The notes under the pieces were generated by a model, which did no database searches, had not been told where the DNA came from, and worked only from the letters and a program-made list of their open reading frames with translations. A stretch of DNA of 58,419 bases from a virus, in the IMG/VR virus record IMGVR_UViG_3300045988_147113, one strand, 5' to 3'. The position numbers and the translations under genes were made by a program. Positions 7,108 to 58,419 of the stretch are shown here, piece after piece (the first letter of the stretch is position 1; the number at the start of each line of letters is the position of its first letter).

Positions 7108-7126
7108 GTTGACTCCTTTTCTTGAT

Positions 7127-7158
7127 AGTTCTCATTAAAGGACATGTCTGGTTCGCGA
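7127..7158 (-). promoter_or_regulatory. Conserved upstream motif, copy 1 (minus-strand consensus TCGCGAATGAAACATGTCCTTTAATGAGAACC)
   Basis: Minus strand reads TCGCGAACCAGACATGTCCTTTAATGAGAACT. Located upstream of gene 6892..7107. Confidence 0.6.
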
Positions 7159-7217
7159 AATATAGCCAAAAGACAAAGACCAAGCCGCATGTGCGACTCA
7201 GTCTTTTTTGTCAATTA

Positions 7218-7604: not shown

Positions 7605-7626
7605 GATTAACTCCTTAATGTAGTAA

Positions 7627-7657
7627 TAGCTTCATTAAGGGCTATGTTTCTTCCGCG
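7627..7657 (-). promoter_or_regulatory. Conserved upstream motif, copy 2
   Basis: Minus strand reads CGCGGAAGAAACATAGCCCTTAATGAAGCTA. The anti-SD CCTTAATG (7633..7640 on the plus strand as CATTAAGG) pairs perfectly with 7613..7620. Confidence 0.6.
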
Positions 7658-7738
7658 TTAAAAATGATCATCCCACCACAATGGGAACCAAGCTGCGAAA
7701 ATCATAACCAATATGGCGCCTATGAGTAAATATAACAT
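7658..7738 (-). CDS. 26-aa hydrophobic mini-protein
   Basis: MLYLLIGAILVMIFAAWFPLWWDDHF. Its start overlaps the upstream stop as TGATG. Confidence 0.35.
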   Translation of the reverse strand: MLYLLIGAILVMIFAAWFPLWWDDHF

Positions 7739-18727: not shown

Positions 18728-18759
18728 TGGTTCTCATTAAGGGGGATGTATGGTTCGCG
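18728..18759 (-). promoter_or_regulatory. Conserved upstream motif, copy 3
   Basis: Minus strand reads CGCGAACCATACATCCCCCTTAATGAGAACCA. Confidence 0.55.
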
Positions 18760-18760
18760 T

Positions 18761-19147
18761 TTAACCGAGCCAGCTCTCTTCTAGTTCGCCGGAAGGATAA
18801 CGTCCTCGTTCGTCGTTATGACGAACGACCTTCATATAAGTGTTCTCGATCTCGGTCTGGGAAAATCCGAAAGCGAATGCGATATTTACCAGCGTCTGGT
18901 ATACGTCGCAGAACTCTTCGAGGGAATGCTGGCGAAGTGCTTCGTAATCGGCTTCCGGATCATTCTGTCCTTTCAGCTGGTCTTTGATCGCTTCCGTCAA
19001 TTCGGCCGCTTCTTCGAGTGTCTTGAGCGGAGCCTGTTTTCCTTCCGGAATCTGATTGCTATCAAAAGCCAATCCGACTGGAAAATGAACTTCCTGTTCT
19101 CCGGTATTCAAATATACGCCGTATTCTTTCGGGTTATCCCAACTCAT
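18761..19147 (-). CDS. Putative MazG-like nucleotide pyrophosphohydrolase
   Basis: 128 aa. SLEEFCDVYQTLVNIAFAFGFSQTEIENTYMKVVRHNDERG fits the MazG EExxD...helix...K..N..R pattern. The call is tentative. Confidence 0.4.
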   Translation of the reverse strand: MSWDNPKEYGVYLNTGEQEVHFPVGLAFDSNQIPEGKQAPLKTLEEAAELTEAIKDQLKGQNDPEADYEALRQHSLEEFCDVYQTLVNIAFAFGFSQTEIENTYMKVVRHNDERGRYPSGELEESWLG

Positions 19148-19586: not shown

Positions 19587-19619
19587 TGGTTCTCATTAAA
19601 GGGTGTGTTTCATTTGCGA
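19587..19619 (-). promoter_or_regulatory. Conserved upstream motif, copy 4
   Basis: Minus strand reads TCGCAAATGAAACACACCCTTTAATGAGAACCA. Confidence 0.6.
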
Positions 19620-20081
19620 TTACATATATTCATATTCGGCATTCCCCAACGACCATCGTTCTGCTCCCCACACACGAAATATCCATCGAGTCATGCCGTT
19701 TTCGACAAAGAACAGCGATACACCTTGCGATGATCGTATAATGGCTTGTCTGAAATCGCAGTCGAGCAGCCATGGCGCTATCTGCTCGAGAAAACAAGTA
19801 AATTCATTCTTCGGAGTATGGATATCAAAATCCGCATCGACAATTGTCATATTCGTGGCGTTTCTCACCGCTTCGGTTTGGATGCAGACAGCGCCGTGGT
19901 CATCCACGTACACCCAGAATGATACGCCATTCGGTCGAACATACTGATACCAGCCGCTGATGGCGTTGTGTGGCACTTGATACGACCTATCCATGATCTT
20001 GGGAAAGAGTTCCGATGCCACCTTCTCATTGTGCAACTGCTCGCGTAAATTCGGTGGTTGATGCTTCAATGAAATTAACAT
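19620..20081 (-). CDS. Hypothetical protein
   Basis: 153-aa ORF. Confidence 0.6.
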   Translation of the reverse strand: MLISLKHQPPNLREQLHNEKVASELFPKIMDRSYQVPHNAISGWYQYVRPNGVSFWVYVDDHGAVCIQTEAVRNATNMTIVDADFDIHTPKNEFTCFLEQIAPWLLDCDFRQAIIRSSQGVSLFFVENGMTRWIFRVWGAERWSLGNAEYEYM

Positions 20082-21353: not shown

Positions 21354-21374
21354 GTTTCTCCTTTTTGTGGATTA

Positions 21375-21406
21375 TTCGGTCATTAAAGGCCATGGATGAA
21401 TCGCGG
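21375..21406 (-). promoter_or_regulatory. Conserved upstream motif, copy 5
   Basis: Minus strand reads CCGCGATTCATCCATGGCCTTTAATGACCGAA. Confidence 0.55.
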
Positions 21407-21510
21407 CACCATGGAAACGAATGCAGCGATGACAATAAACATAATATGCTCTTGACATCGAAAAAAGCCAAAGCCGCATGTGTGAAATGCGGCCTTAGCC
21501 TTGGATGTCA

Positions 21511-21714: not shown

Positions 21715-21747
21715 TGGTTCTCATTAAAGGGTGTGTTTCATTCGCGA
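21715..21747 (-). promoter_or_regulatory. Conserved upstream motif, copy 6
   Basis: Minus strand reads TCGCGAATGAAACACACCCTTTAATGAGAACCA. Confidence 0.6.
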
Positions 21748-21757
21748 CTGCAAATAT

Positions 21758-22209: not shown

Positions 22210-22227
22210 GTTTGCTCCTTTCGGTTA

Positions 22228-22259
22228 TGTTGTCATTAAAGGCGATGATTCATGCGCGA
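22228..22259 (-). promoter_or_regulatory. Conserved upstream motif, copy 7
   Basis: Minus strand reads TCGCGCATGAATCATCGCCTTTAATGACAACA. Confidence 0.55.
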
Positions 22260-22381
22260 AAAAAAATATAAACGCCATGTCCTGTCTCAGTGGTGGTACG
22301 TGACGTTACAGCTATACTCAACATATCGGATAAATGAGAAGCCGTGTGATTAACGGCTTGTCATTATTAGGATTGATCAAG

Positions 22382-22508: not shown

Positions 22509-22542
22509 TAGCTTCTCATTAAGGACCATGATTAATTCGCGA
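22509..22542 (-). promoter_or_regulatory. Conserved upstream motif, copy 8
   Basis: Minus strand reads TCGCGAATTAATCATGGTCCTTAATGAGAAGCTA. Confidence 0.55.
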
Positions 22543-22653
22543 ATACATCATCAAGCTCCTTGCCCAAAAATATAAACCATACGCATCATCGGACAAGAAG
22601 CAAAGCAGATGGCTTTGCTTCTATTGATCATTCCTGATTAGAGGAAATGGTGT

Positions 22654-22763: not shown

Positions 22764-22796
22764 TGGTTCTCATTAAAGGACATGTTTCATTCGCGA
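22764..22796 (-). promoter_or_regulatory. Conserved upstream motif, copy 9
   Basis: Minus strand reads TCGCGAATGAAACATGTCCTTTAATGAGAACCA. A perfect 10-bp stem forms between 22749..22758 and 22770..22779 and includes the SD. Confidence 0.6.
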
Positions 22797-22807
22797 CTGC
22801 AAATATA

Positions 22808-23120: not shown

Positions 23121-23153
23121 ATTTCTTCAATAAAGGACATGTATCATGCGCGA
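23121..23153 (-). promoter_or_regulatory. Conserved upstream motif, copy 10
   Basis: Minus strand reads TCGCGCATGATACATGTCCTTTATTGAAGAAAT. Confidence 0.5.
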
Positions 23154-23161
23154 AAAAAAAT

Positions 23162-23424: not shown

Positions 23425-23457
23425 TCTCTTGTCATTAAAGGCCATGTACGATTCGCG
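23425..23457 (-). promoter_or_regulatory. Conserved upstream motif, copy 11
   Basis: Minus strand reads CGCGAATCGTACATGGCCTTTAATGACAAGAGA. Confidence 0.55.
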
Positions 23458-23469
23458 TCGAGACAAAAT

Positions 23470-23502
23470 ATAAGAGCCCATGCGCGCGGCATAGGCTCTT
23501 AT
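23470..23502 (-). terminator. Terminator hairpin (ATAAGAGCCCATGCG....GCATAGGCTCTTAT family)
   Basis: Near-identical to the hairpin at 23847..23879. Confidence 0.65.
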
Positions 23503-23508
23503 ATGATA

Positions 23509-23805: not shown

Positions 23806-23846
23806 AATATATGGTCCTTTCTTCTATGGTTTGCGTGAGAAAAAAC

Positions 23847-23879
23847 ATAAGAGCCCATGCGTGGCGCATAGGCTCTTAT
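23847..23879 (-). terminator. Terminator hairpin
   Basis: ATAAGAGCCCATGCGTGGCGCATAGGCTCTTAT. Confidence 0.65.
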
Positions 23880-23882
23880 ACT

Positions 23883-24176: not shown

Positions 24177-24188
24177 AATGGCTCCTTT

Positions 24189-24214
24189 CATAAAGGGCCA
24201 TGTATGTCACGCGA
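24189..24214 (-). promoter_or_regulatory. Conserved upstream motif, copy 12 (degenerate)
   Basis: Minus strand reads TCGCGTGACATACATGGCCCTTTATG. Confidence 0.45.
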
Positions 24215-24218
24215 CGTC

Positions 24219-42509: not shown

Positions 42510-44440
42510 TCTTTTGGGGCTGCCTCGATCACGATCGCGGACTTCGGCTTGGTCAAAGCGGCCGACATACGAGTCTCAATCAGATACTTGTACTGGTTGT
42601 AATCAATGTCGAAGTCGTTGAACGACGTCACATCGCCGCCACGATCGGTGCCGACGGTAATATCGCGAGGATCGATGATGATAGCCTGAAGAATATTATT
42701 GTTCTTCAGCTTGAAGTTCTCAAGCAGCGGAACCTCAACGATCTTCTGGACACCGAGCTCGAAGGCCAGAGCGGCGTCGGAATCGTACAGACGACGACCC
42801 ATCTGATCACGCTGCACAGCGAAGCTGGCGTGCAGGGTCGGGGAAACATATGCAGTCAAGACGCCCGAACCCATGTAACCGACCTTGGACTGACGAATGC
42901 GGTCAACCAGAGCGGTCTGGGTTTCATCGGCCTTGCCCACGGAATGCATGACGTACAGATCGTCGTCGGAAACGACCGGACGGATGCATTCGGTGTTGAT
43001 GTGATCCTCGGCGGAAACATCACGGCCGTCGCCGATAAGGATTGCACGGGCGACTTCCTCATCGAGCTGAATACGCATCTCACGCATCAGGAAGTTCACC
43101 ACGGAGAACTCGGTGATGTCAAGCACATCATCACGGTCCACCTTCTGCTTCTTGTAGATGGTAGTCGGCGTGGTCTGACGCTTGTACGCCGTAATCATTT
43201 CATCGAACTTGCGATGATTGTTGTTACGATCAAGCGTGTAACCCTTAGCACGAGCCTCATCCGGAGTCAGATCCACATATGCGGACTTGATGCGAGTCCA
43301 CGGAACCTTGTGGACGCCATTCAGAAGGCCGGCGACCCACTCGGTGTCGCGCTTGTACAGATCAGGCTCAGTGCGCTCGGCACGGGCATCCGGGAAGAAC
43401 ACGTTGATGTTCTTGATGCCGTAATCCTGGGCGTGCTGAAGCACGAACTTCTGGAGAGAGCCGGACGGATCGCGCTGAGCAGCTCGGAAGAAGTTCTCCT
43501 GAGCATGGGTGAAATCAGTAGCGCCCTTCACACCTTCAGAATGCATAAAGCTCTGATAATCATCAGAATGCTCAAAAGACGTAGCGCCTTCGGTAGCATT
43601 GTGTTCGAAGATATTCATTTCATCTCCTTCATCCGCCGACTGTTCGACGGTTTGCTGTTTATTGGATTGTTCGCCCTCGGTCTTGGCCGATGTGGTCTTA
43701 CCCTCATTCAGAGCCATACCGACAAGGCCTTCGACAAGCGCCTTCTGCTTATCGTTCAGACTGTCGTAGACCTTCTGAGGATCCTCGTCATCCGATTCAG
43801 AATCGGAATTGTCAGAATCAGTTTCTTTGGATTTTGCGGTTTGTTTGGCAGAACCGTCGGAAACTGGTTCATCCTCTTTCTCGTGCTTCTCCGCATTTGC
43901 ATCTGCGTGAAGCACTTCATTCAGAGAATCTTCAGAGAATACCTCCGAAGGATCTCCAGACTCGTCACCTTGTTCGATCTCGCACAGGAAATTAGCGCTG
44001 ATCGAGGATGGATCCTCAAACGAGTCACCGTCATCAGAATGACGAATCACATTATCAATAGTCGCCTCTGGGTTAGCCCCAGCAAAGACCAACGACACTT
44101 CACGGATCTTACCATGAAGCACATCGGCTCCTTCCTGGACTACCTTATTGGCGGCAATGGACAGCGACATCATATCGCCGTGTTGAATGATGCCACGAGC
44201 AGCCTTACCGGCATCGGTATCGTTCAAATAGCCATATGCATAGACGCCGTCATCACGGTTTTCCAGCAACGCCTTACCGATCACTGAAAGCGGACTGGTA
44301 TGATCATGCTGGAACACCAGAGGAACCACGGTGCCATCCTGATCGGCAAACGCGTTTTTACGAATGACTCGGCCATCGGAGCAAAGAACATCGTTCTTTG
44401 TAGCGTAGCCACTGAAATCACTCTTAAAGCCATCAGCCAT
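42506..44440 (-). CDS. Fused prohead protease (HK97/S78-like) - major capsid protein (HK97 fold)
   Basis: ATG at 44440 follows AAAGGAG. The N-terminal about 140 aa look protease-like (VPLVFQHDH...GKIREVSLVFAGANP). An acidic linker follows. The C-terminal about 380 aa look capsid-like (...RIQLDEEVARAILIGDGR...). Confidence 0.6.
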   Translation of the reverse strand: MADGFKSDFSGYATKNDVLCSDGRVIRKNAFADQDGTVVPLVFQHDHTSPLSVIGKALLENRDDGVYAYGYLNDTDAGKAARGIIQHGDMMSLSIAANKVVQEGADVLHGKIREVSLVFAGANPEATIDNVIRHSDDGDSFEDPSSISANFLCEIEQGDESGDPSEVFSEDSLNEVLHADANAEKHEKEDEPVSDGSAKQTAKSKETDSDNSDSESDDEDPQKVYDSLNDKQKALVEGLVGMALNEGKTTSAKTEGEQSNKQQTVEQSADEGDEMNIFEHNATEGATSFEHSDDYQSFMHSEGVKGATDFTHAQENFFRAAQRDPSGSLQKFVLQHAQDYGIKNINVFFPDARAERTEPDLYKRDTEWVAGLLNGVHKVPWTRIKSAYVDLTPDEARAKGYTLDRNNNHRKFDEMITAYKRQTTPTTIYKKQKVDRDDVLDITEFSVVNFLMREMRIQLDEEVARAILIGDGRDVSAEDHINTECIRPVVSDDDLYVMHSVGKADETQTALVDRIRQSKVGYMGSGVLTAYVSPTLHASFAVQRDQMGRRLYDSDAALAFELGVQKIVEVPLLENFKLKNNNILQAIIIDPRDITVGTDRGGDVTSFNDFDIDYNQYKYLIETRMSAALTKPKSAIVIEAAPKE

Positions 44441-44467
44441 ATGGATCACTCCTTTCTCGAATTAATG

Positions 44468-48384: not shown

Positions 48385-48927
48385 CTACTTCTTTTTCTTT
48401 TTCGGCTTCGCATGTCGTGGAGTAGAAGGCGCGATCTTGCTTTCAGCATATCCTTTGAGAGCCGTCTTAAGATAATCTTTGGCGATTTCTTTGCCTGCAT
48501 CGATGGCCATGGATTTTCCGGTATCCAACATGAAATGAATGAATTTCTGGCCTTTGGATCGTGATGCCTCTTTCTGCTGAGCCGTCAATCGGTTATAATT
48601 GGCTATGGCATTGGTTCGATTCACCCAATCGTTAATCTCTTGAGTGGACATATCCTGAACCTTCATGCGAGAAAGACGCTGGTATTTCTCATGGTCGGAT
48701 TCTTTGCGAACTGCCTTGGAACTTTCAGATGAATCTTTCCTAGGCGCCTGAGATCCTTCAGTTGAGTCCTTACCGGAATTCTTGTCGGAATCGCCTTCCC
48801 AATCTTTCTTGCCGCGAGCGGCTTGAAGTTCTTTGGTCGAACGTCGACGTCCCCATTTCATACCGAGGATGCCGAAATGTTCAAAACATTGCTCGACTGG
48901 ATCAATGGCTTCAATGTCGTTATCCAT
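48385..48927 (-). CDS. Hypothetical protein (GILGMKWGRRR motif)
   Basis: ATG at 48927 follows GAAGGAG. It has a low-complexity Ser/Lys-rich centre. Confidence 0.5.
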   Translation of the reverse strand: MDNDIEAIDPVEQCFEHFGILGMKWGRRRSTKELQAARGKKDWEGDSDKNSGKDSTEGSQAPRKDSSESSKAVRKESDHEKYQRLSRMKVQDMSTQEINDWVNRTNAIANYNRLTAQQKEASRSKGQKFIHFMLDTGKSMAIDAGKEIAKDYLKTALKGYAESKIAPSTPRHAKPKKKKK

Positions 48928-49279
48928 CAAATGCTCCTTCCGCGTTGACATTCAATCGCCATTCAAGCTCTTGAATCTGTTTTTCCATAGATTGCACGAG
49001 GAATGAATTGGACGGAGGATCAAACAGCAATCGTGTCTTGAGATAGATATAGGTTTTAATTCCATTGAGTTGTGATACGTCACTGGTAAGATTATGCCAA
49101 ACCTCGCTCTCGGAAGTGATCTGAAATCCGTCCGAAGGTCCGATTCCTATCTGATGCAAAGTCATCAATGCCGAATTGATATCAATGATAATTTCCGGAT
49201 CAAAACCATTAAACGTTTCATCGATGCCGAGCATCTGCTTGATGGTGTTCAGGATCGAAGACTGCAATAGCGTACCCAT
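48920..49279 (-). CDS. Hypothetical protein
   Basis: 119-aa ORF. Confidence 0.55.
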   Translation of the reverse strand: MGTLLQSSILNTIKQMLGIDETFNGFDPEIIIDINSALMTLHQIGIGPSDGFQITSESEVWHNLTSDVSQLNGIKTYIYLKTRLLFDPPSNSFLVQSMEKQIQELEWRLNVNAEGAFDG

Positions 49280-52560: not shown

Positions 52561-52984
52561 ATGGACATCATCTCCTTTTGTTAGCGGATTCTCAACGCTA
52601 TCGCAGAGTTTTCTAGGGGTATTGGGGAGAATCATGCTCGATCCAAGGGAGTATTTCCACCGTTTCGCAGCGGTACATGTATCGGAAACTAATTCGGAGA
52701 GCACCCAACACCCCCGGAGAACCCTACGAGAGCTAAAAAGCAATTCCAAAATATCCCCCGCGGGGTATTTTCGAGTTGCCGGGCGATGCTATAGGGGGTG
52801 TGTTTTTCACGACCCCTCCCCCCGGTATCTCAAAAGAGATCCTAGGGTTGGGCATCTCAATAATTTTGAATTCGAACGAATCTAAATTCAAAATTATTCT
52901 TTGATATGAATTATAAACCATCCATAGATGGTTGCAGTCGAATGAAAGTTAATTCATTCGCATTTAATTGATTTCGATTTGCAA

Positions 52985-53212
52985 CGACAACGAATGATAA
53001 CAATCAGCATCGATGAACGATGTGATTCATATAGGCAAATGCTATTCGTTGCTCATATGAATCACATCATTCATCATTGTTGCTGTTGTTATTCATGCAT
53101 GTCGACAACGAATGATAACAATCAGCATCGATGAACGATGTGATTCATATAGGCAAATGCTATTCGTTGCTCATATGAATCACATCATTCATCATTGTTG
53201 CTGTTGTTATTC
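52985..53212. repeat. Two perfect 110-bp tandem repeats, each a long imperfect hairpin
   Basis: 52985..53094 is identical to 53103..53212 (118-bp period, ATGCATGT spacer). Within each unit, GATGAACGATGTGATTCATAT pairs with ATATGAATCACATCATTCATC. Confidence 0.9.
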
Positions 53213-53512
53213 GTTTGATGCAGCAGACGGAACTTCGCGCCATGAAGGACGCTTAGCTAATGTGTACACACCCAAAGGATCATGAGCAAAGAGATCTCGA
53301 ATCATTCGAGCATACTCGATGGCTTGATCCTCATCAGACATGTTGTCATAACCCATGAACATTTGGTTGACTAAACCACATGTATCATAGCCCATGGCAA
53401 TGTCTAGATTCATCCACCCTTCGAAATCAACGAATGGATTGATAGGGTTGTCCACTGTGGTTACCAATACATCATGTCTAAGGCATGCTTGCTCTAGCGG
53501 TGATAATGTCAT
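53207..53512 (-). CDS. Hypothetical protein
   Basis: 101-aa ORF downstream of the RNAP-like gene. Confidence 0.55.
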   Translation of the reverse strand: MTLSPLEQACLRHDVLVTTVDNPINPFVDFEGWMNLDIAMGYDTCGLVNQMFMGYDNMSDEDQAIEYARMIRDLFAHDPLGVYTLAKRPSWREVPSAASNE

Positions 53513-53518: not shown

Positions 53519-56320
53519 TCACTTCCCAAGATTCTCAGACAATGTTGAAGTCGAAATACCCAAAGCATCTGCGACTTCTGCATTGGTATAGCCAGCATTC
53601 ATGAGCGATTTCGCTCTAGCAATAGCCCAAGAAGGAAGCTTTTCTTTCTTTCTCGGAGTAGCTAGTTCTCGAACTCGATCAGGATCGGCGTATTGCAGTA
53701 TCTCACGAAGACGATTTGCTGAGATGGCCCTTGCTTGAATTGCCTCCCAGTCTCGATCCGTAAGATCCACCCTCTTGGATTGAATACCAACAATAGCTCT
53801 AGCTCGTTTGAGTTCCTTTTGTCCAGCTTTCTTCAGATCTTCCTTATCATAGTCAGGATGATCCTCTTTGATGGCACGAAGTCTCTCATTGGCTATGACC
53901 TGAGCCTTTCGTTCCAGGGGCTGGTTCTTCTTGGCTTCGTTGAGCTGGGCTACCATCTTCTTAACTTCGGGGGCGTATTGTTTTCTAGCCTGGGGGTCCA
54001 CTTTGAAAGGCTCTGCCTGGAGGTAGGCCTTTCGAGATTGGTTACCCAAATCTTTCATGCCGTTAGAGTAACGGGCATAAATAGATTCCATCAAAGTCCC
54101 AGAAGAAAGTTCCCTAGCATCCTTGGCCTCGGCGAGTTTCGTAGACTTCGTAATATTGGGGACTGTTTCATAACGAACAACCTCACCCTTCGAATTACGA
54201 ACCGCTCGATGATGAGATTCACCGGTAAGTTCATAACGTTTCTCACCAGTCTCAGGATCAATCGGGCCGCCATTCTTCATGGATCGGGGCTTGCGCTCCG
54301 GAAGACGAACTACACCCTTAGCCCTTGAAACAAGAGTAGAAGCGCCACCACTTTGGAACTTTTCCTTGAGGGCCTTAATGTTATTATCCGTCTCGGATTG
54401 TTTCCAATCAAGCTTATGCTTTTCGGAATCAATCACCACCATGGAATGACGAACCGCACGAACCAATTCATCAGGACGAGCGCCTTGGATTGTCATATCG
54501 GTAATCAAATTGGATACGATACCCATCTGACGCTGCTTCATCTCAGGAGAAATCAAACGCTTGTCATTGGGCTTGATGTCCTTTGGCAAGGCGTATGATT
54601 CCTTGGGATCAAATCCTTGAAGCCCCTTCAATGGAGCAGCGTTCTTGATCTGACCGCTTTTATTTGGAATTACCTGTACGGTATCTCCATCAAAATCGGC
54701 ACCCGATAGACGTTCGGCGACCTTGGAATTAATACCCACTGCATCCTTGGCATTGCCGATATATTTGAGACCTTCCTTGTTGCGATTGTTCACCACAAGT
54801 TCAGGCATCTCAAATCGACCAGCGTGCGGGTATCGAACCAGCATCACCTTCTCGCCATTTCGGTAGTTCGGAGCATAAATCTCACGATCGCTCAACGAAT
54901 TGATCGGAAGGATCACATGAGACTTCTGACGGGGAACAGCGGCAGCCTTCAAAGAAACGGCAGCAGAATCGCATTCGTCGGCAAACTCTTGAAGAAGCTT
55001 TTGCTTGACGACTGGATTGGTCAACGATTTGATTTCTTTAAGATTCAATCGAGAACGATCCAGAGCAATGCCAAGTTGCTGAGAAGCAAACGAAGGTTCC
55101 TGCTTGGAAAGCATCTGAGATGGTAGATTCTTAGACCAACCATCCCAATCACCTTCGGTATTCAAAATATTCAAAGACGATTGTTTTCTCTTACCGGTTT
55201 TTGGATCCACATAAGTAGGTTGCAAACGAACGGCTGCCTTGAATGGGTTCTCCGTATCGATGACTTCTGTTCCGTTGGCAGACTTGATAGTCTGCATCTT
55301 CTTCAGAACATCCATCTTCGGAGTGCCCTTGTGTTTGTTGGTACAGAAAGCCACATCAACACCAGGTGGGAACGACCGAGGATCACCAACGAGTGCCATG
55401 CCTTTGAGGTAGTGGGTACCGTCAACGGCAATTCGAACCTGAGCGTAACGTTTACCATCCGGCAACTGAAGATCAGGAGCCTTGGGATTGATCAGCATCA
55501 CACCGTCTCGTTCGACGCCTTTGAAACCAGCAAACTTGTCTTCAGCATAAACGATCTTAACTCGCTTACTGTCGATTGAGACTGGAGGCTTCAGTGCTCC
55601 GGAAAATCCTGCTGGAATGTCATCGAGGTTCTTCGCCAAAGAAGCAATACGCTCACGATGAGCGTACAGACCTTCCGGGCCTGAAACCTTGACACCGGGA
55701 GCGGTCAACAGCTTGAGGGTCGTCTTCTGGCCAGGACCAGTGCCGAGCTGATTCTCATACATGTAGTGGACTTCGTAACCATTATCGACCGCCATCTGCA
55801 CTGCGACCTTGAGCTTATCGGCAGAAGTTCCCAGATATAATTCTGAGGATTTACCGATATCAAGACCACCGTTCTTCGGAACCGAAGCCATAAGCTTTTC
55901 TGAGATGTCGGTAGCGATGTCCTTACGAACTTCACGACCATCTTTGAGCCAGCCACGGACTGTCGATTCAGAACGTCCAAGCTCTTTGCCGATGGCTGTG
56001 GCACCCCAACCTTGCTTCTGAAGATTCAGCGCTCGGTTGCGAGTATAGTTCTCGGCTTCATTCCATGCCATGGAATATCGTGCTCGGTATTCGGTTGTAG
56101 TCATGCCAAGCGCTCGTGCGATCTCTGTTGAATTGCTGATCCCTTGCTCTTTGAGCCGAGCCACTTGACCCAGCAAGCCATTGGCTCTGGTCAAGGAATC
56201 CTCATCGCCAGAACCCCATTTGTACCGTCCGGAATGCGGAGTGGCTCCTTGATGTGGGATACCGTAATGCTCGAAGTCATACAACGACTCGTCATCACCG
56301 GAATATGACTCTTCAGCCAT
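53519..56320 (-). CDS. Putative single-subunit two-barrel (YonO-like) DNA-dependent RNA polymerase with terminal HTH modules
   Basis: 933 aa.
- VMLVRYPHAGRFEM...GINSKVAERLSGADFDGDTVQVI (ADFDGD at 54683..54700) mirrors the beta-prime DPBB motifs R.P.lH and NADFDGD.
- The upstream DKFAGFKGV resembles the beta DPBB motif GDKmAGRHGnKGV.
- HTH-like segments lie at both termini. Confidence 0.6.
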   Translation of the reverse strand: MAEESYSGDDESLYDFEHYGIPHQGATPHSGRYKWGSGDEDSLTRANGLLGQVARLKEQGISNSTEIARALGMTTTEYRARYSMAWNEAENYTRNRALNLQKQGWGATAIGKELGRSESTVRGWLKDGREVRKDIATDISEKLMASVPKNGGLDIGKSSELYLGTSADKLKVAVQMAVDNGYEVHYMYENQLGTGPGQKTTLKLLTAPGVKVSGPEGLYAHRERIASLAKNLDDIPAGFSGALKPPVSIDSKRVKIVYAEDKFAGFKGVERDGVMLINPKAPDLQLPDGKRYAQVRIAVDGTHYLKGMALVGDPRSFPPGVDVAFCTNKHKGTPKMDVLKKMQTIKSANGTEVIDTENPFKAAVRLQPTYVDPKTGKRKQSSLNILNTEGDWDGWSKNLPSQMLSKQEPSFASQQLGIALDRSRLNLKEIKSLTNPVVKQKLLQEFADECDSAAVSLKAAAVPRQKSHVILPINSLSDREIYAPNYRNGEKVMLVRYPHAGRFEMPELVVNNRNKEGLKYIGNAKDAVGINSKVAERLSGADFDGDTVQVIPNKSGQIKNAAPLKGLQGFDPKESYALPKDIKPNDKRLISPEMKQRQMGIVSNLITDMTIQGARPDELVRAVRHSMVVIDSEKHKLDWKQSETDNNIKALKEKFQSGGASTLVSRAKGVVRLPERKPRSMKNGGPIDPETGEKRYELTGESHHRAVRNSKGEVVRYETVPNITKSTKLAEAKDARELSSGTLMESIYARYSNGMKDLGNQSRKAYLQAEPFKVDPQARKQYAPEVKKMVAQLNEAKKNQPLERKAQVIANERLRAIKEDHPDYDKEDLKKAGQKELKRARAIVGIQSKRVDLTDRDWEAIQARAISANRLREILQYADPDRVRELATPRKKEKLPSWAIARAKSLMNAGYTNAEVADALGISTSTLSENLGK

Positions 56321-56333: not shown

Positions 56334-56927
56334 CTAGAAGATCAATTTATTAGCTTTCGCTTCGGCGCGAAGTTCACGAATCATCTTATCATCATGAACG
56401 ATAAGATTCATAACATCCTTGATGGTTTCCGGATCAGTAAACTCTTCAATGCGAACTTCATCATTCTGATAGAGTCGGCATTCAAAATTGATATCATCTG
56501 GTTTGATGTTGTACTCGAGACAGAACAGAGCGCAATACACATGCAGCTGTCCGAACTCGAGCACATCCTTCTGACCGGTCTTGAGATCAAATACTCGAAG
56601 AAGTTTCTTCTTGGGATCGAATCCGATAAGATCGGCAGTCCCGAAACAATACTCGCTGTAATAGAGCACCACTTCCGGACTCATGTTGTATCCGAGACCA
56701 TCATTGATGAACTCGTTGATGGTCTCATGGTTGCGCGGCATCTTCCGACCCATCCTATTCGCAAACTCGGCGAAGGCGTGAAGCTGTGTGCCACGTTCTT
56801 TCATGAGATTGGAATAGAAGATATCCTTGAAGTGCTCATCGTCGTAGTTGAGCCAGACATGATGACTGGCACTCAAATATGCATGCTTACCTTGAAGGTC
56901 AGTGTGCTGATTGAACGTGAATGTCAT
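56334..56927 (-). CDS. PD-(D/E)XK nuclease (RecB/Cas4-like exonuclease fold)
   Basis: 197 aa from the ATG at 56927. GTADLIGFDPKKKLLRVFDLKTGQ fits the D...(D/E).K motif. Confidence 0.5.
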   Translation of the reverse strand: MTFTFNQHTDLQGKHAYLSASHHVWLNYDDEHFKDIFYSNLMKERGTQLHAFAEFANRMGRKMPRNHETINEFINDGLGYNMSPEVVLYYSEYCFGTADLIGFDPKKKLLRVFDLKTGQKDVLEFGQLHVYCALFCLEYNIKPDDINFECRLYQNDEVRIEEFTDPETIKDVMNLIVHDDKMIRELRAEAKANKLIF

Positions 56928-56958
56928 GATGACCCCTAAAATGAAAAGCCGTGATTCC

Positions 56959-57258
56959 CTAGGCTTTGGATAGATATCGCTTGACTTGGTCCACCACATC
57001 GTCTTCATTCGAAGGATCGACAAACGAAGCAAAACCGCCATCGTCGTTGATCTTCTGAACGAAGTGATCCTGATTTGGTCGATGGGATGCGGTGGCTGAG
57101 CGTTTGACTTCCAGCGAAGCAAATCGGCCATGTGCGAGGATCAAGAGATCCGGGATGCCTTGCACTTGGTTCGCATCGGCTTTCATGACAATGGATCCTG
57201 GAATCTCGGTCCTCAATCGCTTGACCAGTTTACGCTGGAAGTCTCGCTCTAAAACCAT
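56959..57258 (-). CDS. VRR-NUC domain nuclease
   Basis: 99 aa. GIPDLLILAHGRFASLEVKR is the VRR-NUC PD...(E)VK core. Confidence 0.65.
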   Translation of the reverse strand: MVLERDFQRKLVKRLRTEIPGSIVMKADANQVQGIPDLLILAHGRFASLEVKRSATASHRPNQDHFVQKINDDGGFASFVDPSNEDDVVDQVKRYLSKA

Positions 57259-57368
57259 GAAAAAACCTCCAACCGTAAAATACGGGAGATACCTGTAGTT
57301 ATATGTATATTCTATCCATTATGGGAAATGTACGAGACGATGTTTGTGCACAAATGTGCACAAATGAT

Positions 57369-57742: not shown

Positions 57743-58207
57743 CTAATACACTCGATGGGCATCGGTAATGTACACATGTACAAGATGCCGGCACTTCACG
57801 CAATAGACGATATGCAACAACAAGCGAACACCATTCAAATCGATTTGACTCGGAGCATCATCTCGAATAACTGGTGCGGTCACTTCCCAGCTCTCTCGGT
57901 TATGGTTGCAATTAATCCCCTCTGTCGACATTTGCTGTGCGATCTGTCGAATGGCGTCGGCATCGACGTGAGGGATCTTATCGAGCGGCACCATGAGTTT
58001 GGTTCGCTTGCGACATCCAGAACAATAACACGCCAGGACGAAATCGTTCATGGAAAAATTACGGCGTTCCTGAGGTGTGAGTTCATCTGGATCGATCTTC
58101 GGGATACTGATGCATACCGGAGTCCCTGGTTGACATCTACACCCAATCATGTCGTGGGCGATTTCGTAAATGGTTTCTCGATTACCATCGAGGATGAAAT
58201 AAGTCAT
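57743..58207 (-). CDS. Hypothetical Cys-rich early protein
   Basis: 154 aa from the ATG at 58207 (AAAGGAA RBS). It has several CxxC pairs. It is the first gene after the repeat array. Confidence 0.55.
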   Translation of the reverse strand: MTYFILDGNRETIYEIAHDMIGCRCQPGTPVCISIPKIDPDELTPQERRNFSMNDFVLACYCSGCRKRTKLMVPLDKIPHVDADAIRQIAQQMSTEGINCNHNRESWEVTAPVIRDDAPSQIDLNGVRLLLHIVYCVKCRHLVHVYITDAHRVY

Positions 58208-58241
58208 GACGGTTCCTTTCTGCAAAAAAGTGGTTTTCAAA

Positions 58242-58261
58242 TGTGTAACGTTTGTGTGACA
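58242..58261. repeat. Third forward copy of the TGTGTAACGTTTGTGTGAC motif
   Basis: Shares GTTTTCAAATGTGTAACGTTTGTGTGACA with the copy at 113..140. It sits about 35 nt upstream of the first early gene start (58207). On the circular map this makes 3 forward and 3 reverse copies. Confidence 0.85.
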
Positions 58262-58300
58262 TAGGTTATACTTTATATCTTTTCATATTATAATGATTAT

Positions 58301-58419
58301 ATTTTTTTTTTCACCGGAATAGGAAGTATGTCACAGAAATATTACACACAGAAAAATACTCTTAAAACCCCAAAAACGTTGAAATTCCAACGTTTTCAGG
58401 CCCTAAAAGACGTTTTCAA
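58301..58419. repeat. Terminal direct repeat, copy 2
   Basis: Exact copy of 1..119. Confidence 0.9.

What the first reader, a model, noticed from the sequence alone, without database searches (positions are those of the whole stretch)
53519..56320. 933-aa early protein carries both double-psi beta-barrel signatures of cellular RNA polymerases (YonO-like single-subunit RNAP)
**Beta-prime-like barrel.** The segment EKVMLVRYPHAGRFEMPELVV...AVGINSKVAERLSGADFDGDTVQVIP reproduces the two hallmark elements of the beta-prime DPBB. These are V.L.R.P..H... and the Mg-binding NADFDGD followed by .M.V. ADFDGD lies at 54683..54700.

**Beta-like barrel.** About 280 residues upstream, YAEDKFAGFKGVERDGVMLINP resembles the beta-subunit DPBB motif GDKmAGRHGnKGV. 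The beta-like then beta-prime-like order matches single-chain two-barrel polymerases: YonO of the SPbeta prophage, QDE-1-type enzymes and crAss-like virion RNAPs.

**Extra modules.** Unlike YonO, this protein has HTH-like modules at the N-terminus (STEIARALGMTTTEYRARY, ATAIGKELGRSESTVRGWL) and at the C-terminus (YTNAEVADALGISTSTLSENL). These could supply promoter recognition within the same chain.

The gene lies in the first transcribed block, consistent with a phage RNAP that takes over middle or late transcription.
Basis: partly seen in the sequence, partly recalled or inferred. Interest (0 to 1): 0.85.

Follow-up and report, generated by a model that had tools for sequence, protein, structure and literature searches.

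The report
Phage single-chain two-barrel RNA polymerase
This phage gene encodes a one-protein RNA polymerase built on the same two-barrel active site as cellular RNA polymerases, with DNA-binding helix-turn-helix modules at both ends. It belongs to a large, already named but biochemically untested family, and I found a conserved 30-base promoter-like signal that travels with that family.

Summary
The ORF is real: window 53519-56320, minus strand, 933 aa. ADFDGD lies exactly at 54683-54700. The protein is a full-length member of PHROG 4291 ("RNA-dependent RNA polymerase", E=0) and 37% identical over its whole length to Lactococcus phage 1706 ORF75.

AlphaFold models (full length pLDDT 81; core pLDDT 92.6) match only two-barrel polymerases. 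The best matches are QDE-1 (E=3.6e-11, TM 0.55), plant RDR2 and Thermus phage P74-26 gp62.

The beta-prime-like signature (R496-x-P498-H499 and D542/D544/D546) and all three helix-turn-helix modules are confirmed and conserved. The conserved barrel-1 signature is D272 and YAQVR...YLKG (aa 292-307).

The protein is not a YonO family member; similarity is confined to the catalytic barrel.

"First transcribed block" is a coordinate artefact. The window is a circularly permuted assembly, and a conserved cos site (about 52777-52822) makes this the last large gene of the right arm.

The family, its DxDGD motif and its terminal helix-turn-helix modules were already published in 2010 and 2021, so this is a new member of a known kind.

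New lead: a 30-nt motif (CGCG-N6-ACAY-N4-TWTAAT-GA) occurs 12 times before early and replication genes, and is conserved in relatives infecting two bacterial phyla.

The parts
53519..56320 (-). 933-aa ORF: single-chain two-barrel RNA polymerase, PHROG 4291 / phage 1706 ORF75 family
   Evidence: ORF. PHROG 4291 match, E=0, aa 21-932. 37% identity over the full length to 1706 ORF75, E=3e-178. Fold matches.
56207..56272 (-). Conserved but disordered N-terminal peptide EHYG...SGRYKWGSG (aa 17-38), resembling the DUF7211 motif
   Evidence: H18, G20, S30, G31, R32, Y33, G36 and G38 are invariant. pLDDT is about 30. A related peptide occurs in ORF 48385-48951 (DUF7211, E=6.7e-8). A homologue's N-terminus hits DUF7211 only weakly (E=0.011).
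56075..56131 (-). HTH 1 (aa 64-82)
   Evidence: Helices 64-70 and 75-102 in the model. Sub-threshold AsnC-type HTH hit. A68 and T75 are invariant.
55934..56032 (-). HTH 2 (aa 97-129), resolvase / sigma-region-4-like
   Evidence: Pfam HTH_23 E=4.9e-10 and HTH_38 E=1.5e-6; Sigma70_r4_2 E=4e-4 is below the cut-off. G104, I110, E118, S119 and R122 are invariant.
55151..55573 (-). Barrel 1 (beta-like, aa ~250-390). Invariant D272-G273, YAQVR (292-296), YLKG (304-307; nt 55400-55447), K329, K340
   Evidence: Beta-strand pattern in two models. Invariant residues. Motif-level pairing with YonO DRD / FMVR...VKG in a non-significant alignment. Analogy to QDE-1 Q736-x-R738...K743 (PMC9508822).
54662..54934 (-). 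Barrel 2 (beta-prime-like, aa ~463-553). R496-Y-P498-H499 (nt 54824-54835) and SGADFDGD; DFDGD at nt 54683-54697
   Evidence: Local hits to PHROG 8308 (YonO; E=6e-5, aa 474-554) and Pfam RdRP (E=0.006, aa 533-640).
54416..54547 (-). Two long conserved helices after barrel 2 (aa 592-635: MGxVSNLITDM, RHSMVVIDxEKH); bridge-helix-like by position
   Evidence: Helices 592-611 and 616-635. Invariant residues. Aligns with YonO IGEISNNITK. The bridge-helix assignment is inference.
53528..53632 (-). HTH 3 (aa 897-931) at the C-terminus
   Evidence: Pfam HTH_3 E=1.8e-5 (above cut-off) and HTH_7 E=2e-4. Helices 897-908, 913-920 and 924-930. Family consensus GYTxAEVADxLGISxSTL.
56959..57258 (-). Endonuclease gene, conserved upstream neighbour
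   Evidence: phrog_93, E=4.9e-18. Same order in Mudcat, 1706, ReqiPoco6 and L002.
56334..57131 (-). Cas4-like exonuclease gene directly upstream; the true start is probably internal (about 197 aa in L002)
   Evidence: phrog_3953, E=2.5e-60, aa 72-259. L002 gene calls.
53207..53512 (-). 101-aa ORF directly downstream; conserved partner of unknown function
   Evidence: phrog_4303, E=1e-17. A small ORF follows the polymerase gene in 1706, Mudcat, ReqiPoco6 and BitterVaud1.
52777..52822 (-). cos-like site GGGGGAGGGGTCGTGAAAAACACACCCCCTATAGCATCGCCCGGCA; predicted physical right end of the genome
   Evidence: Matches the right termini of ReqiPoco6 (annotated 3' cos overhang), Mudcat, 1706 and many IMG/VR contig ends.
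57318..57331 (-). Degenerate promoter-like element ACAT-TTCC-CATAAT upstream of the endonuclease-exonuclease-polymerase cluster; lacks the CGCG part
   Evidence: Read from the sequence. It sits about 1 kb upstream of the polymerase start, where at least 16 of 51 related loci carry a full motif.
24182..24215 (-). Promoter-like motif copy 12 (weakest), at the boundary between the structural and early regions
   Evidence: PWM score 24.2, against a maximum of 18.2 in shuffles.
23426..23459 (-). Promoter-like motif copy
23121..23154 (-). Promoter-like motif copy
22764..22797 (-). Promoter-like motif copy (best): GTCGCGAATGAAACATGTCCTTTAATGAGAACCA
22510..22543 (-). Promoter-like motif copy
22227..22260 (-). 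Promoter-like motif copy
21715..21748 (-). Promoter-like motif copy
21374..21407 (-). Promoter-like motif copy
19587..19620 (-). Promoter-like motif copy
18728..18761 (-). Promoter-like motif copy
7626..7659 (-). Promoter-like motif copy
7126..7159 (-). Promoter-like motif copy; the last one before the replication genes, nucleases and polymerase gene

Best explanation
**What it is (shown).** The gene encodes a single-chain RNA polymerase of the two-barrel (double-psi beta-barrel) superfamily. It belongs to the phage family typified by Lactococcus phage 1706 ORF75 (PHROG 4291).

**Anatomy (shown by conservation and predicted fold).**
- The catalytic core spans aa ~250-660.
- Barrel 1 is beta-like. 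It carries D272, Q294-x-R296 and K306-G307, which would hold the RNA 3' end, the NTP and the second metal.
- Barrel 2 is beta-prime-like. It carries R496-x-P498 and the Mg-binding D542-x-D544-G-D546 loop.
- Two long helices follow barrel 2.
- Two HTH modules precede the core and one follows it.

**How it works (inferred).**
- It is a DNA-dependent transcriptase of the phage genome that needs no sigma factor, because its own HTH modules read the promoter.
- Its cognate promoter is the ~30-nt motif CGCG-N6-ACAY-N4-TWTAAT-GA(G)AA.
  - This motif stands 25-35 nt upstream of the start codons of 12 early and replication-region transcription units in this phage.
  - In many relatives it also stands about 1 kb upstream of the endonuclease-exonuclease-polymerase cluster.
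- If so, the enzyme drives early and middle genes, including its own. The first molecules would then have to arrive with the virion.

**Position (shown).** The gene is the last large gene of the right arm, just inside the cos site.

Family membership, conserved residues, predicted fold, gene position and motif conservation are shown. Template type, promoter use, timing and virion delivery are inferred.
For: **Identity**
- PHROG 4291 full-length match, E=0.
- 250 phage records carry homologues; 249 cover at least 80% of the query.
- 3856 cluster representatives match at E<=1e-3, of which 1191 at E<=1e-30.
- 37% identity, E=3e-178, to 1706 ORF75.

**Fold**
- Full-length model: pLDDT 81, pTM 0.70. 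Core model: pLDDT 92.6, pTM 0.85.
- Foldseek against the PDB gives QDE-1 E=3.6e-11, probability 1.0, TM 0.55; P74-26 gp62 E=3.7e-10; RDR2 E=1.4e-9. Beta-prime/Rpb1 chains follow at about 1e-3. All 50 listed hits are two-barrel polymerases.
- The viral library gives the same picture.

**Catalytic residues**
- R496, P498, H499, D542, D544, D546, D272, Q294, R296, K306, K329 and K340 are invariant.

**HTH modules**
- Pfam hits. Their recognition helices are among the conserved parts of the protein across two host phyla.

**Motif**
- 11 copies within 3 mismatches against 0.00 expected. A 12th is found by PWM.
- All copies are on the gene strand, all lie between 7.1 and 24.2 kb, and none lies in the structural region.
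- The same motif in the same register occurs in Arthrobacter phage Mudcat (7 copies), Bifidobacterium phage BitterVaud1 (7) and Lactococcus phage 1706 (11-12).
- Across 51 IMG/VR loci a four-phage PWM gives 35 hits on the gene strand, 1 on the other strand and 5.2 in shuffles. At least 16 loci have a copy about 0.9-1.1 kb upstream of the polymerase gene, and none has a copy downstream of it.
- The motif has no -35 hexamer at sigma-A spacing. Its conservation extends into the purine-rich start region.

**Virion delivery**
- The depositors of phage 1706 annotated ORF75 as 'structural protein'. ReqiPoco6 gp106 carries the same label by similarity.
- In 1706 the gene lies between the endolysin and, across cos, the holin.
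- The N-terminal peptide is shared with small proteins encoded beside the terminase and portal genes.

**Precedents**
- YonO is a proven DNA-dependent RNA polymerase (PMC5467207).
- P23-45 gp64 transcribes early and middle genes while host polymerase does the late ones (PMC10770324).
Against: - I found no biochemical or transcriptomic data for any member of this family in the searchable literature.
- The motif's -10-like hexamer is the bacterial sigma-A consensus (TATAAT in three of the four phages). Host polymerase could therefore be its reader, with the extra conserved bases bound by some other phage factor.
- If the polymerase gene depends on its own promoter class, pre-made enzyme is needed. 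The only support for virion packaging is an annotation label, and in the same record that label is also given to small proteins in the replication region.
- In this window the copy nearest the polymerase gene is degenerate. The next good copy is about 9 kb upstream.
- Mapping of barrel-1 residues onto known catalytic residues rests on motif analogy and a non-significant alignment (E=0.22). I could not inspect model coordinates.
- DNA versus RNA template preference cannot be read from sequence.
Confidence: 0.5

Rival explanations
1. YonO-type programme. Host sigma-A polymerase transcribes the early and replication genes from the 12 motif-bearing promoters, and through them the polymerase gene at the end of that region. 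The phage polymerase then transcribes the late structural genes that begin just across cos, from a promoter in the ~430-nt non-coding stretch between the 101-aa ORF and cos.
For: - The motif contains a sigma-A-type -10 hexamer: a perfect TATAAT in Mudcat and BitterVaud1, TTTAAT here.
- In many relatives a motif copy sits directly upstream of the nuclease-polymerase cluster, as expected for an early or middle gene read by host polymerase.
- The gene lies immediately upstream of the late genes in the circular map.
- yonO sits in the same place relative to the SPbeta terminase and portal genes, and YonO transcribes SPbeta late genes as one operon (PMC5467207).
- No motif copy occurs in the late region, so late genes need some other signal.
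Against: - Apart from cos, I found no conserved non-coding motif downstream of the polymerase gene across 23 non-redundant relatives; the other recurrent k-mers appear to lie in the conserved small ORF.
- It does not explain why CGCG, ACAY and the start region keep identical spacing in phages of hosts ranging from Lactococcus to Arthrobacter, with no -35 hexamer at 16-18 nt.
- It does not explain the 'structural protein' annotation of 1706 ORF75.
Confidence: 0.3
2. A replication-linked RNA or DNA synthase rather than a transcriptase. The enzyme would make primers or other short RNAs at the origin or at cos, guided by its HTH modules, as part of the replication-recombination module in which it is embedded.
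For: - The gene is always the last member of a conserved helicase - endonuclease - Cas4-like exonuclease block. That block was described as the second conserved region of these phages (10.1101/842583).
- An iteron-like repeat cluster lies about 2 kb upstream.
- Two-barrel cores can also support DNA synthesis, as in archaeal PolD (PMC10770324).
Against: - The phage DNA polymerase already carries a primase-like region (phrog_4210 with DNA primase hits).
- The closest structural relatives are processive RNA polymerases.
- A 933-aa enzyme with three HTH modules is large for a primase.
- No direct evidence supports this reading.
Confidence: 0.07
3. A true RNA-dependent RNA polymerase, as the database name says. 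It would copy phage or host transcripts into double-stranded or antisense RNA.
For: - The best structural matches are the RNAi polymerases QDE-1 and RDR2.
- There is a weak Pfam RdRP hit (E=0.006), and HHpred gave 95.7% probability in 10.1101/842583.
- The barrel-1 Q-x-R motif resembles the one said to be typical of RNAi-related enzymes (PMC9508822).
Against: - The name comes from homology only.
- YonO has the same affinities and is a DNA-dependent enzyme (PMC5467207). QDE-1 itself uses DNA templates (PMC9508822).
- Three DNA-binding HTH modules and a double-stranded DNA phage context fit DNA templates better.
Confidence: 0.05
4. Only a DNA-binding regulator, as most SEA-PHAGES records annotate it ('helix-turn-helix DNA-binding domain protein'). 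The barrel region would be a non-catalytic relic.
For: - Only the HTH domains pass Pfam's curated thresholds.
- Most phage records use this name.
Against: - Every catalytic-site residue is invariant across relatives with 37-73% overall identity.
- The most conserved peptides of the whole protein are GADFDGD and YAQVR.
- The core is predicted with pLDDT 92.6.
Confidence: 0.03

Closest known systems
Lactococcus phage 1706 ORF75 family (PHROG 4291). Includes Arthrobacter phage Mudcat gp94, Rhodococcus phage ReqiPoco6 gp106, Streptomyces cluster BI phages, Faecalibacterium phage FP_oengus 'putative RNA polymerase' and Bifidobacterium phage BitterVaud1
   Same: - Full-length homology: 37-51% identity to isolates and E=0 to the family profile.
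- Same domain order: N-terminal peptide, two HTH modules, two barrels, helices, C-terminal HTH.
- Same neighbours: endonuclease and exonuclease upstream, a small ORF downstream.
- Same place at the right genome end before cos.
   Different: - No isolate is closer than 50.7% identity, and there is no DNA-level match in the phage collection.
- This lineage lacks a full promoter-like motif directly upstream of the nuclease-polymerase cluster.
- Near-identical uncultured copies exist (98-99%).
YonO of Bacillus prophage SPbeta (PHROG 8308)
   Same: - Single chain with beta-like then beta-prime-like barrel.
- R-x-PH, DxDGD and G-x-x-SN-x-IT motifs align.
- Barrel-1 'VR...KG' motif (not significant).
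- Encoded just upstream of the packaging and structural genes.
- YonO is experimentally a DNA-dependent RNA polymerase for late genes (PMC5467207).
   Different: - Different family. There is no full-length similarity; hhalign gives E=0.089 and the single-sequence comparison finds nothing.
- YonO homologues show no HTH Pfam domains and carry four invariant C-terminal cysteines, C799/C802/C816/C819, instead.
QDE-1 (Neurospora) and plant RDR2, the eukaryotic RNAi polymerases
   Same: - Best structural matches to the catalytic core: E=3.6e-11, TM 0.55 normalised to the query.
- Share R-x-P, DxDGD and Q-x-R...K motifs (PMC9508822).
   Different: - 11-14% sequence identity.
- The Pfam RdRP score is below the curated cut-off (15.8 against 23.8 bits).
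- They are eukaryotic silencing enzymes.
- No terminal HTH modules are reported in the QDE-1 descriptions I read; I did not check this directly.
Thermus phage P23-45 gp64 / P74-26 gp62 non-virion RNA polymerase
   Same: - Phage-encoded single-chain two-barrel enzyme.
- Strong structural match: E=3.7e-10, TM 0.46.
- It transcribes early and some middle genes while host polymerase does the late ones (PMC10770324). That is the programme my promoter lead suggests here.
   Different: - No sequence-level similarity was detected.
- It is much smaller (about 590 aa).
- In that system a second, tape-measure-fused virion polymerase starts the cascade.
Virion RNA polymerases: crAss-like phi14:2 gp66 and N4 vRNAP
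   Same: - They show that a phage polymerase can be packaged and ejected to transcribe early genes.
- gp66 is also a single-chain two-barrel enzyme (10.1101/2020.03.07.982082; PMC10770324).
   Different: - Packaging of the present family rests only on an annotation label.
- gp66 is not among the 50 listed PDB hits; only pieces of crAss-like phage proteins hit weakly in the viral library.
- N4 vRNAP is a T7-like right-hand enzyme (own knowledge), which is an unrelated fold.

Membership tests
Two-barrel (double-psi beta-barrel) RNA polymerase superfamily | Beta-prime-like barrel with the metal-binding loop D-x-D-G-D (Rpb1 D481/D483/D485 equivalents) | tested here: met
   SGADFDGD at aa 539-546. 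D542, D544 and D546 are invariant in 50 and in 17 diverse homologues.
Two-barrel (double-psi beta-barrel) RNA polymerase superfamily | R-x-P loop in the same barrel (Rpb1 R446/P448; QDE-1 R962-x-P964) | tested here: met
   R496-Y-P498-H499 is invariant. The feature is defined in PMC2919709 and PMC9508822.
Two-barrel (double-psi beta-barrel) RNA polymerase superfamily | Beta-like barrel with two basic residues that hold the RNA 3' end and NTP (Rpb2 K979/K987) and one catalytic aspartate (Rpb2 D837) | tested here: inconclusive
   - Invariant D272, D322, Q294, R296, K306, K329 and K340 lie in the predicted barrel 1.
- Q294-x-R296...K306 resembles QDE-1 Q736-x-R738...K743 and YonO R266...K271-G272 (E=0.22).
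- One-to-one mapping needs model coordinates or a solved structure.
Two-barrel (double-psi beta-barrel) RNA polymerase superfamily | Overall fold of the catalytic core | tested here: met
   - Core model pLDDT 92.6.
- Foldseek probability 1.0 to QDE-1, RDR2 and P74-26 gp62, with TM 0.46-0.56.
- All 50 listed hits are two-barrel polymerases.
- This is a predicted structure, not an experimental one.
Two-barrel (double-psi beta-barrel) RNA polymerase superfamily | Templated RNA synthesis dependent on the aspartate triad | not testable with these tools
   Needs purified protein. No report was found for this family.
Phage 1706 ORF75 family (PHROG 4291) | Full-length match to the family profile | tested here: met
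   E=0, 1062 bits, aa 21-932 on profile positions 12-906 of 909. BLASTP to 1706 ORF75 gives 37% identity, E=3e-178.
Phage 1706 ORF75 family (PHROG 4291) | HTH domains at both termini (as described in 10.1101/842583) | tested here: met
Phage 1706 ORF75 family (PHROG 4291) | [quoted passage not shown] | tested here: met
   - Gene order.
- The cos-like site at 52777-52822 matches the termini of ReqiPoco6, Mudcat and 1706.
- In 19 of 51 related contigs the contig ends less than 700 nt after the gene.
YonO family (PHROG 8308) | Full-length sequence homology to YonO | tested here: not met
   - YonO matches PHROG 8308 at E=0.
- This protein hits PHROG 8308 only locally (aa 474-554, E=6e-5).
- hhalign family against family gives E=0.089, probability below 1%. 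Against the single YonO sequence it finds nothing meaningful.
YonO family (PHROG 8308) | Transcription of the phage late operon | not testable with these tools
   Requires transcript mapping in a knockout, as was done for YonO.
Eukaryotic-type RdRP (Pfam PF05183) | Score above Pfam's gathering threshold | tested here: not met
   15.8 bits against a cut-off of 23.8, E=0.006, and only aa 533-640.
Virion-packaged phage RNA polymerases | Presence of the protein in purified virions | not testable with these tools
   Only indirect evidence: the 'structural protein' label on 1706 ORF75 by its depositors and on ReqiPoco6 gp106 by similarity. The source papers were not readable here.

The most novel reading that the evidence does not exclude
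This widespread family of ordinary 40-60 kb siphoviruses carries a self-sufficient transcription system.
- A single-chain two-barrel RNA polymerase is packaged in the virion through a conserved N-terminal peptide.
- It is ejected with the DNA.
- Three built-in HTH readers take the place of a sigma factor.
- They recognise a ~30-nt promoter (CGCG-N6-ACAY-N4-TWTAAT-GA) that has stayed the same in phages of Actinobacteria and Firmicutes.

Early and middle transcription, including that of the polymerase gene itself, would then be independent of the host polymerase.
Probability: 0.3. Interest if true: 0.75.

Novelty: new member of a known kind. Interest (0 to 1): 0.45.

Why it matters
**The gene itself.** It adds a divergent, uncultured member to a family that is already recognised and named. 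The closest isolate is a honeybee-gut Bifidobacterium phage at 51% identity.

**The family.**
- It is very large: about 3,900 sequence clusters, and 250 sequenced phages on Arthrobacter, Gordonia, Streptomyces, Lactococcus, Faecalibacterium and Bifidobacterium among other hosts.
- Most genome records label it merely a 'helix-turn-helix DNA-binding protein'.
- As far as I could find, it has never been tested biochemically.

**What a test could show.** A 100-kDa polymerase with the cellular-type active site and its own promoter readers in one chain would be a compact model for how two-barrel enzymes find promoters without sigma or TFB-like factors. It could also serve as an orthogonal expression tool for Gram-positive bacteria.

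**Why it is now testable.** The conserved 30-nt motif and the conserved cos site reported here supply concrete templates. One can place the motif on DNA, add purified protein, and see whether transcription starts a few bases after TWTAAT.

Tried and rejected
**Sequence searches against solved structures.** Both the single protein and the 50-sequence profile found only HTH look-alikes and a spurious RecA-fusion match. No polymerase appeared. Only fold comparison showed the relationship.

**Comparison with YonO.**
- hhalign against YonO alone found nothing.
- Against a 32-sequence YonO alignment it gave E=0.089.
- For barrel 1 alone it gave E=0.22.
- The aligned motifs are sensible but not statistically significant, so I do not file the protein as a YonO family member.

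**DNA-level searches.** Megablast of the gene found nothing, and megablast of 12 kb of the structural region found essentially nothing, in the phage collection.

Rejected as the conserved signature.

**The TGTGTAACGTTTGTGTGAC repeats as polymerase promoters.** Rejected. They form one bidirectional cluster at the window junction, 6 exact and 2 degenerate copies in both orientations. That pattern fits an origin or operator.

**Sigma-70-type promoter and terminator scan around the gene.** It gave fewer promoter-like sites than shuffles did and nothing decisive.

**Search for a conserved late-promoter motif downstream of the polymerase gene.** In 23 relatives it returned the cos site plus k-mers that appear to lie in the conserved small ORF.

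**Literature.**
- Searches for the motif sequences, for DUF7211 and for experimental work on this family found nothing relevant.
- The phage 1706 and ReqiPoco6 papers are not held.

Full report
**1. The observation**

The window holds one ATG-to-stop ORF of 933 aa at 53519-56320, on the minus strand. The quoted peptides are all present:
- ADFDGD at aa 541-546, which is window 54683-54700 exactly as stated.
- EKVMLVRYPHAGRFEMPELVV at aa 490-510.
- YAEDKFAGFKGVERDGVMLINP at aa 258-279.
- The three helix-turn-helix (HTH) stretches at aa 64-82, 107-125 and 911-931.

Pfam confirms HTH_23 at aa 97-126 (E=4.9e-10) and HTH_3 at aa 908-928 (E=1.8e-5). It also gives many weaker HTH and sigma-region-4 hits, and a sub-threshold hit to eukaryotic-type RdRP (PF05183, E=0.006, aa 533-640).

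**2. What family it is**

- PHROGs gives a full-length match to phrog_4291, 'RNA-dependent RNA polymerase' (E=0, aa 21-932). It gives only a local hit to phrog_8308 (E=6e-5, aa 474-554). phrog_8308 turned out to be the YonO family.
- tblastn finds homologues in 250 phage records, 249 of them nearly full length and all below 60% identity.
  - Hosts include Arthrobacter, Gordonia, Streptomyces, Curtobacterium, Rhodococcus, Lactococcus, Faecalibacterium and Bifidobacterium.
  - The best is Bifidobacterium phage BitterVaud1 at 50.7%.
  - The records call it variously 'HTH DNA-binding domain protein', 'RNA-dependent RNA polymerase', 'putative RNA polymerase', 'structural protein' or 'hypothetical'.
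- Lactococcus phage 1706 ORF75 aligns end to end (37% identity, E=3e-178).
- The family is large.
  - More than 7,800 proteins match in the 90%-identity database, including a 98%-identical one.
  - 3,856 representatives of 50%-identity clusters match at E<=1e-3, of which 1,191 at E<=1e-30.
  - 524 stretches in IMG/VR encode a relative, including a 59-kb contig that encodes a 99%-identical protein.

**3. What was already published**

- Ruprich-Robert and Thuriaux (2010) listed the phage 1706 protein as one of five YonO-like families of two-barrel polymerases. They defined eight invariant residues: the R-x-P pair and three aspartates on the beta-prime side, and two lysines and one aspartate on the beta side (PMC2919709).
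[quoted passage not shown] It proposed RNA polymerase activity (10.1101/842583).
- I found no experimental study of any member.

**4. Structure**

- An AlphaFold2 model built from a 50-sequence alignment has mean pLDDT 81 and pTM 0.70. Only the first ~45 residues and two loops are disordered.
- Foldseek against the PDB returns QDE-1 (E=3.6e-9), maize and Arabidopsis RDR2 and Thermus phage P74-26 gp62 (E=5e-7), all at probability 1.0. Largest subunits of cellular and viral multisubunit polymerases follow at E about 1e-2.
- The viral library gives phage 'RdRP' proteins, pieces of crAss-like phage proteins and giant-virus polymerase subunits.
- A second model of the core alone (aa 245-660) has pLDDT 92.6 and pTM 0.85. 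It matches as follows:
  - QDE-1 at E=3.6e-11 with TM 0.55 normalised to the query.
  - gp62 at E=3.7e-10.
  - RDR2 at E=1.4e-9.
  - Beta-prime/Rpb1-type chains at about 1e-3.
  - All 50 listed hits are two-barrel polymerases.
- The strand pattern shows two barrel regions, aa ~250-390 and ~463-553, separated by two long helices and followed by two more.
That test is not triggered.

**5. Catalytic residues**

- Beta-prime side. In both the 50-sequence alignment and a 17-sequence alignment that adds isolates from four host genera, R496, P498, H499 and S539-D546 are invariant. All five invariant positions on this side are therefore met.
- Beta side.
  - EDKF-AGFKG lies in a loop that varies and that most relatives shorten by six residues. 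Neither lysine is conserved.
  - The invariant barrel-1 residues are R253, D272-G273, Y292-A-Q-V-R296, Y304-L-K306-G307, D322, K329 and K340.
  - The locus finder picked GADFDGD and YAQVR as the two most conserved peptides of the whole protein.
- Correspondence with known enzymes.
  - QDE-1 uses Q736-x-R738...K743 in the equivalent barrel. Pol II uses K979 and K987 there, with one barrel-1 aspartate completing the metal site (PMC9508822).
  - A non-significant alignment pairs 'RDG' and 'YAQVR...YLKG' with YonO's invariant 'DRD' and 'FMVR...VKG'.
  - I therefore take D272, Q294/R296 and K306 as the likely functional counterparts. This is inference, because I could not inspect coordinates.

**6. 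Relation to YonO**

- YonO from the SPbeta record shows no significant full-length similarity. The single-sequence comparison finds nothing, and family against family gives E=0.089.
- The aligned segment does pair R-x-PH, DxDGD and G-x-x-SN-x-IT sensibly.
- YonO relatives show no HTH Pfam domains and carry four invariant C-terminal cysteines.
- The two proteins therefore belong to the same superfamily and have the same single-chain layout, but they are different families.

**7. Where the gene sits**

- The window ends in an exact 119-bp direct repeat (1-119 = 58301-58419). This marks a circularised assembly of a 58,300-bp genome, so window coordinates say nothing about transcription order.
- Almost all genes are on the minus strand.
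- Reading along that strand, the order is as follows:
  - structural and packaging genes, 52.7 down to 24.5 kb
  - a block of small genes, 24 down to 19 kb
  - replication genes: a DNA polymerase split by an HNH endonuclease ORF, a single-strand-binding protein, and a helicase at 2.8-1.6 kb
  - an iteron cluster across the window junction
  - endonuclease, Cas4-like exonuclease, the polymerase, and a 101-aa ORF
- The same order holds in Mudcat, 1706, ReqiPoco6 and a close uncultured relative. In those genomes the polymerase gene is the last large gene at the right end.
- ReqiPoco6 has an annotated 3' cos overhang about 530 nt after the gene.
- The right termini of ReqiPoco6, Mudcat and 1706, and many IMG/VR contig ends, share GGGGGAGGGGTCTCGCAA...ACCCCCCTCTGCATCGCC. 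The window has this sequence at 52822 down to about 52777, which is 28 nt before the first left-arm ORF.
- In 19 of 51 related contigs the contig stops within 700 nt after the gene.
- The gene is therefore the terminal large gene of the right arm. After circularisation it lies directly upstream of the late genes.

**8. A promoter-like motif that travels with the family**

On the gene strand it reads (T)CGCGAATGAAACATGTCCTTTAATGAGAAC.
  - There are 11 copies within 3 mismatches against 0.00 expected. A 12th is found by position weight matrix, score 24.2 against a shuffle maximum of 18.2.
  - All copies are on the gene strand, all lie between 7.1 and 24.2 kb, and each lies 25-35 nt before a Shine-Dalgarno sequence and ATG.
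- The same motif, in the same register, recurs in relatives whose DNA is otherwise unalignable:

| Phage | Host | Motif | Copies |
|---|---|---|---|
| This window | unknown | CGCGAATGAAACATGTCCTTTAATGAGAAC | 12 |
| Mudcat | Arthrobacter | CGCGTAAATTACACGGGCTATAATGAGAAC | 7 |
| BitterVaud1 | Bifidobacterium | CGCGATAAAAACATCGCTTATAATGAA | 7 |
| 1706 | Lactococcus | CACATGTTTTACATACACTATAGTAGAAAG | 11-12 |

- In each of those three relatives the copies begin where the structural module ends.
- With a PWM weighted equally over the four phages, 51 IMG/VR loci around the polymerase gene (GC 31-62%) give 35 hits on the gene strand, 1 on the other strand and 5.2 in shuffles.
  - At least 16 loci have a copy 0.9-1.1 kb upstream of the polymerase start, before the endonuclease-exonuclease-polymerase cluster.
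  - None has a copy in the 10 kb downstream.
- In this window that position holds only a degenerate ACAT-N4-CATAAT (57318-57331).
- The motif has a sigma-A-like -10 hexamer but no -35 hexamer at 16-18 nt. Its conservation runs from about -30 into the purine-rich start region.
- That pattern is typical of promoters read by phage-encoded polymerases. It matches the fact that the three HTH recognition helices are among the conserved parts of the protein.
- The host polymerase remains a live alternative reader.

**9. Hints of virion association**

- The depositors of phage 1706 annotated ORF75 as 'structural protein'; RefSeq later renamed it. ReqiPoco6 gp106 is labelled the same by similarity.
- In 1706 the gene lies between the endolysin and, across cos, the holin.
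- The conserved, disordered N-terminal peptide (D-x-L-x-HYG-x-x-R-x-SGRYPWGSG) resembles the 25-residue DUF7211 motif.
  - That motif is found at the same N-terminal position in small proteins encoded next to the terminase and portal genes, here (48385-48951, E=6.7e-8) and in BitterVaud1.
  - It could be a shared capsid-targeting or portal-binding signal.
- The evidence is thin. The 1706 record also labels two small replication-region proteins as structural, and the papers were not readable.

**10. Explanations and probabilities**

- That the protein is an active two-barrel RNA polymerase of the 1706-ORF75 family: about 0.9.
- That it is DNA-dependent and transcribes phage genes: about 0.7. 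This rests on analogy with YonO and P23-45 gp64, and on the DNA-binding modules.
- Which genes it serves is open.
  - I give about 0.5 to the reading that the 30-nt motif is its promoter, so that it serves early and middle genes and probably needs virion delivery.
  - I give about 0.3 to the YonO-like reading, in which host polymerase reads the motifs and the phage enzyme transcribes the late genes across cos.
  - Small remainders go to a replication-linked role, a true RNA-dependent activity, or a purely regulatory protein.

**11. Novelty and score**

- The finding is real and its core interpretation is right. It re-discovers a family that is already named in PHROGs and RefSeq and whose architecture has been published.
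- This copy is a new, fairly divergent member.
- The family remains biochemically untested. The conserved motif, the conserved cos site and the N-terminal peptide make specific experiments possible.
- Interest: 0.45.

Noticed in passing
window 1-119 and 58301-58419: An exact 119-bp direct repeat joins the two window ends. The window is a circularised or permuted assembly of a 58,300-bp genome, and its start point is arbitrary.
   Followed up: yes
window 7126-24215, minus strand (12 sites); also L007, L008, L009 and 51 IMG/VR loci: A ~30-nt promoter-like motif, CGCG-N6-ACAY-N4-TWTAAT-GA(G)AA, stands 25-35 nt before early and replication genes. It is conserved in register in phages of Arthrobacter, Bifidobacterium and Lactococcus that carry the same polymerase family. 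It is strand-specific and absent from the late regions.
   Followed up: yes
window 52777-52822, minus strand: A conserved cos-like site, GGGGGAGGGGTC...ACCCCCT..GCATCGCC, matches the right genome termini of ReqiPoco6 (annotated 3' cos overhang), Mudcat and 1706 and many IMG/VR contig ends. It predicts the physical genome end about 28 nt before the first left-arm ORF.
   Followed up: partly
window 30-301 and 58242-58348: An iteron-like cluster: TGTGTAACGTTTGTGTGAC occurs 6 times exactly and twice in degenerate form, in both orientations (0.02 expected). It lies between ORF 316-924 and ORF 57743-58240. It is a candidate replication origin or operator array.
   Followed up: partly
window 52985-53212: A perfect tandem duplication of 110 nt with a 118-nt period lies in the non-coding stretch between the 101-aa ORF and the cos-like site. 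Each unit holds a long inverted repeat (GTGATTCATAT...ATATGAATCAC). Function unknown; possibly a regulatory or packaging-related site.
   Followed up: no
window 8592-13129, minus strand: The DNA polymerase (phrog_4210) is split into two ORFs. ORF 10148-13129 covers profile positions 6-949 and ORF 8592-9680 covers 953-1291. An HNH endonuclease ORF lies between them (9677-10144, phrog_59, E=2.6e-34). BitterVaud1 shows a similar three-ORF layout, whereas 1706 and Mudcat have a single ~1317-aa gene.
   Followed up: partly
window 48385-48951 (minus) and 56207-56272 (minus); L001 around 7048 and 9229: The short N-terminal DUF7211 motif (EHFGILGMKWGRRR) occurs in a 188-aa protein encoded next to the large terminase gene, and in two BitterVaud1 proteins that flank the terminase gene. 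The polymerase N-terminus carries a related peptide (HYG...SGRYKWGSG). This may be a shared virion-targeting or partner-binding signal.
   Followed up: partly
window 6849-23177 (9 copies, e.g. 21750-21797 and 22799-22837): A repeated AAAGCCAAAGCCGCATGTGCGACTCTGGCTTT element, a hairpin followed by a T-rich run on the gene strand, lies just upstream of several promoter-like motifs. It looks like intrinsic terminators that separate short early transcription units (families D2, D7 and D16).
   Followed up: no
window 19435-19629 and 21563-21757: A 195-nt segment is duplicated at 93% identity. It includes a promoter-like motif and the 5' end of a gene (both copies continue ...ATGAAGTTTAGCACC), so an early gene start has been duplicated.
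   Followed up: no
L003 11356-13875 (SPbeta yonO) and alignment A2: YonO relatives carry four invariant C-terminal cysteines (C799, C802, C816, C819), which suggests a zinc ribbon where the present family has an HTH. Some sources name such proteins 'ribosomal protein L37E'.
   Followed up: no
window 42506-44449, minus strand: A 647-aa ORF matches head maturation protease over its whole length (phrog_3270, aa 9-645, E=3.4e-178) and also major head protein profiles (phrog_7080 at aa 411-638, phrog_2263 at aa 13-210). It is possibly a protease-capsid fusion, as in 1706 ORF10.
   Followed up: no
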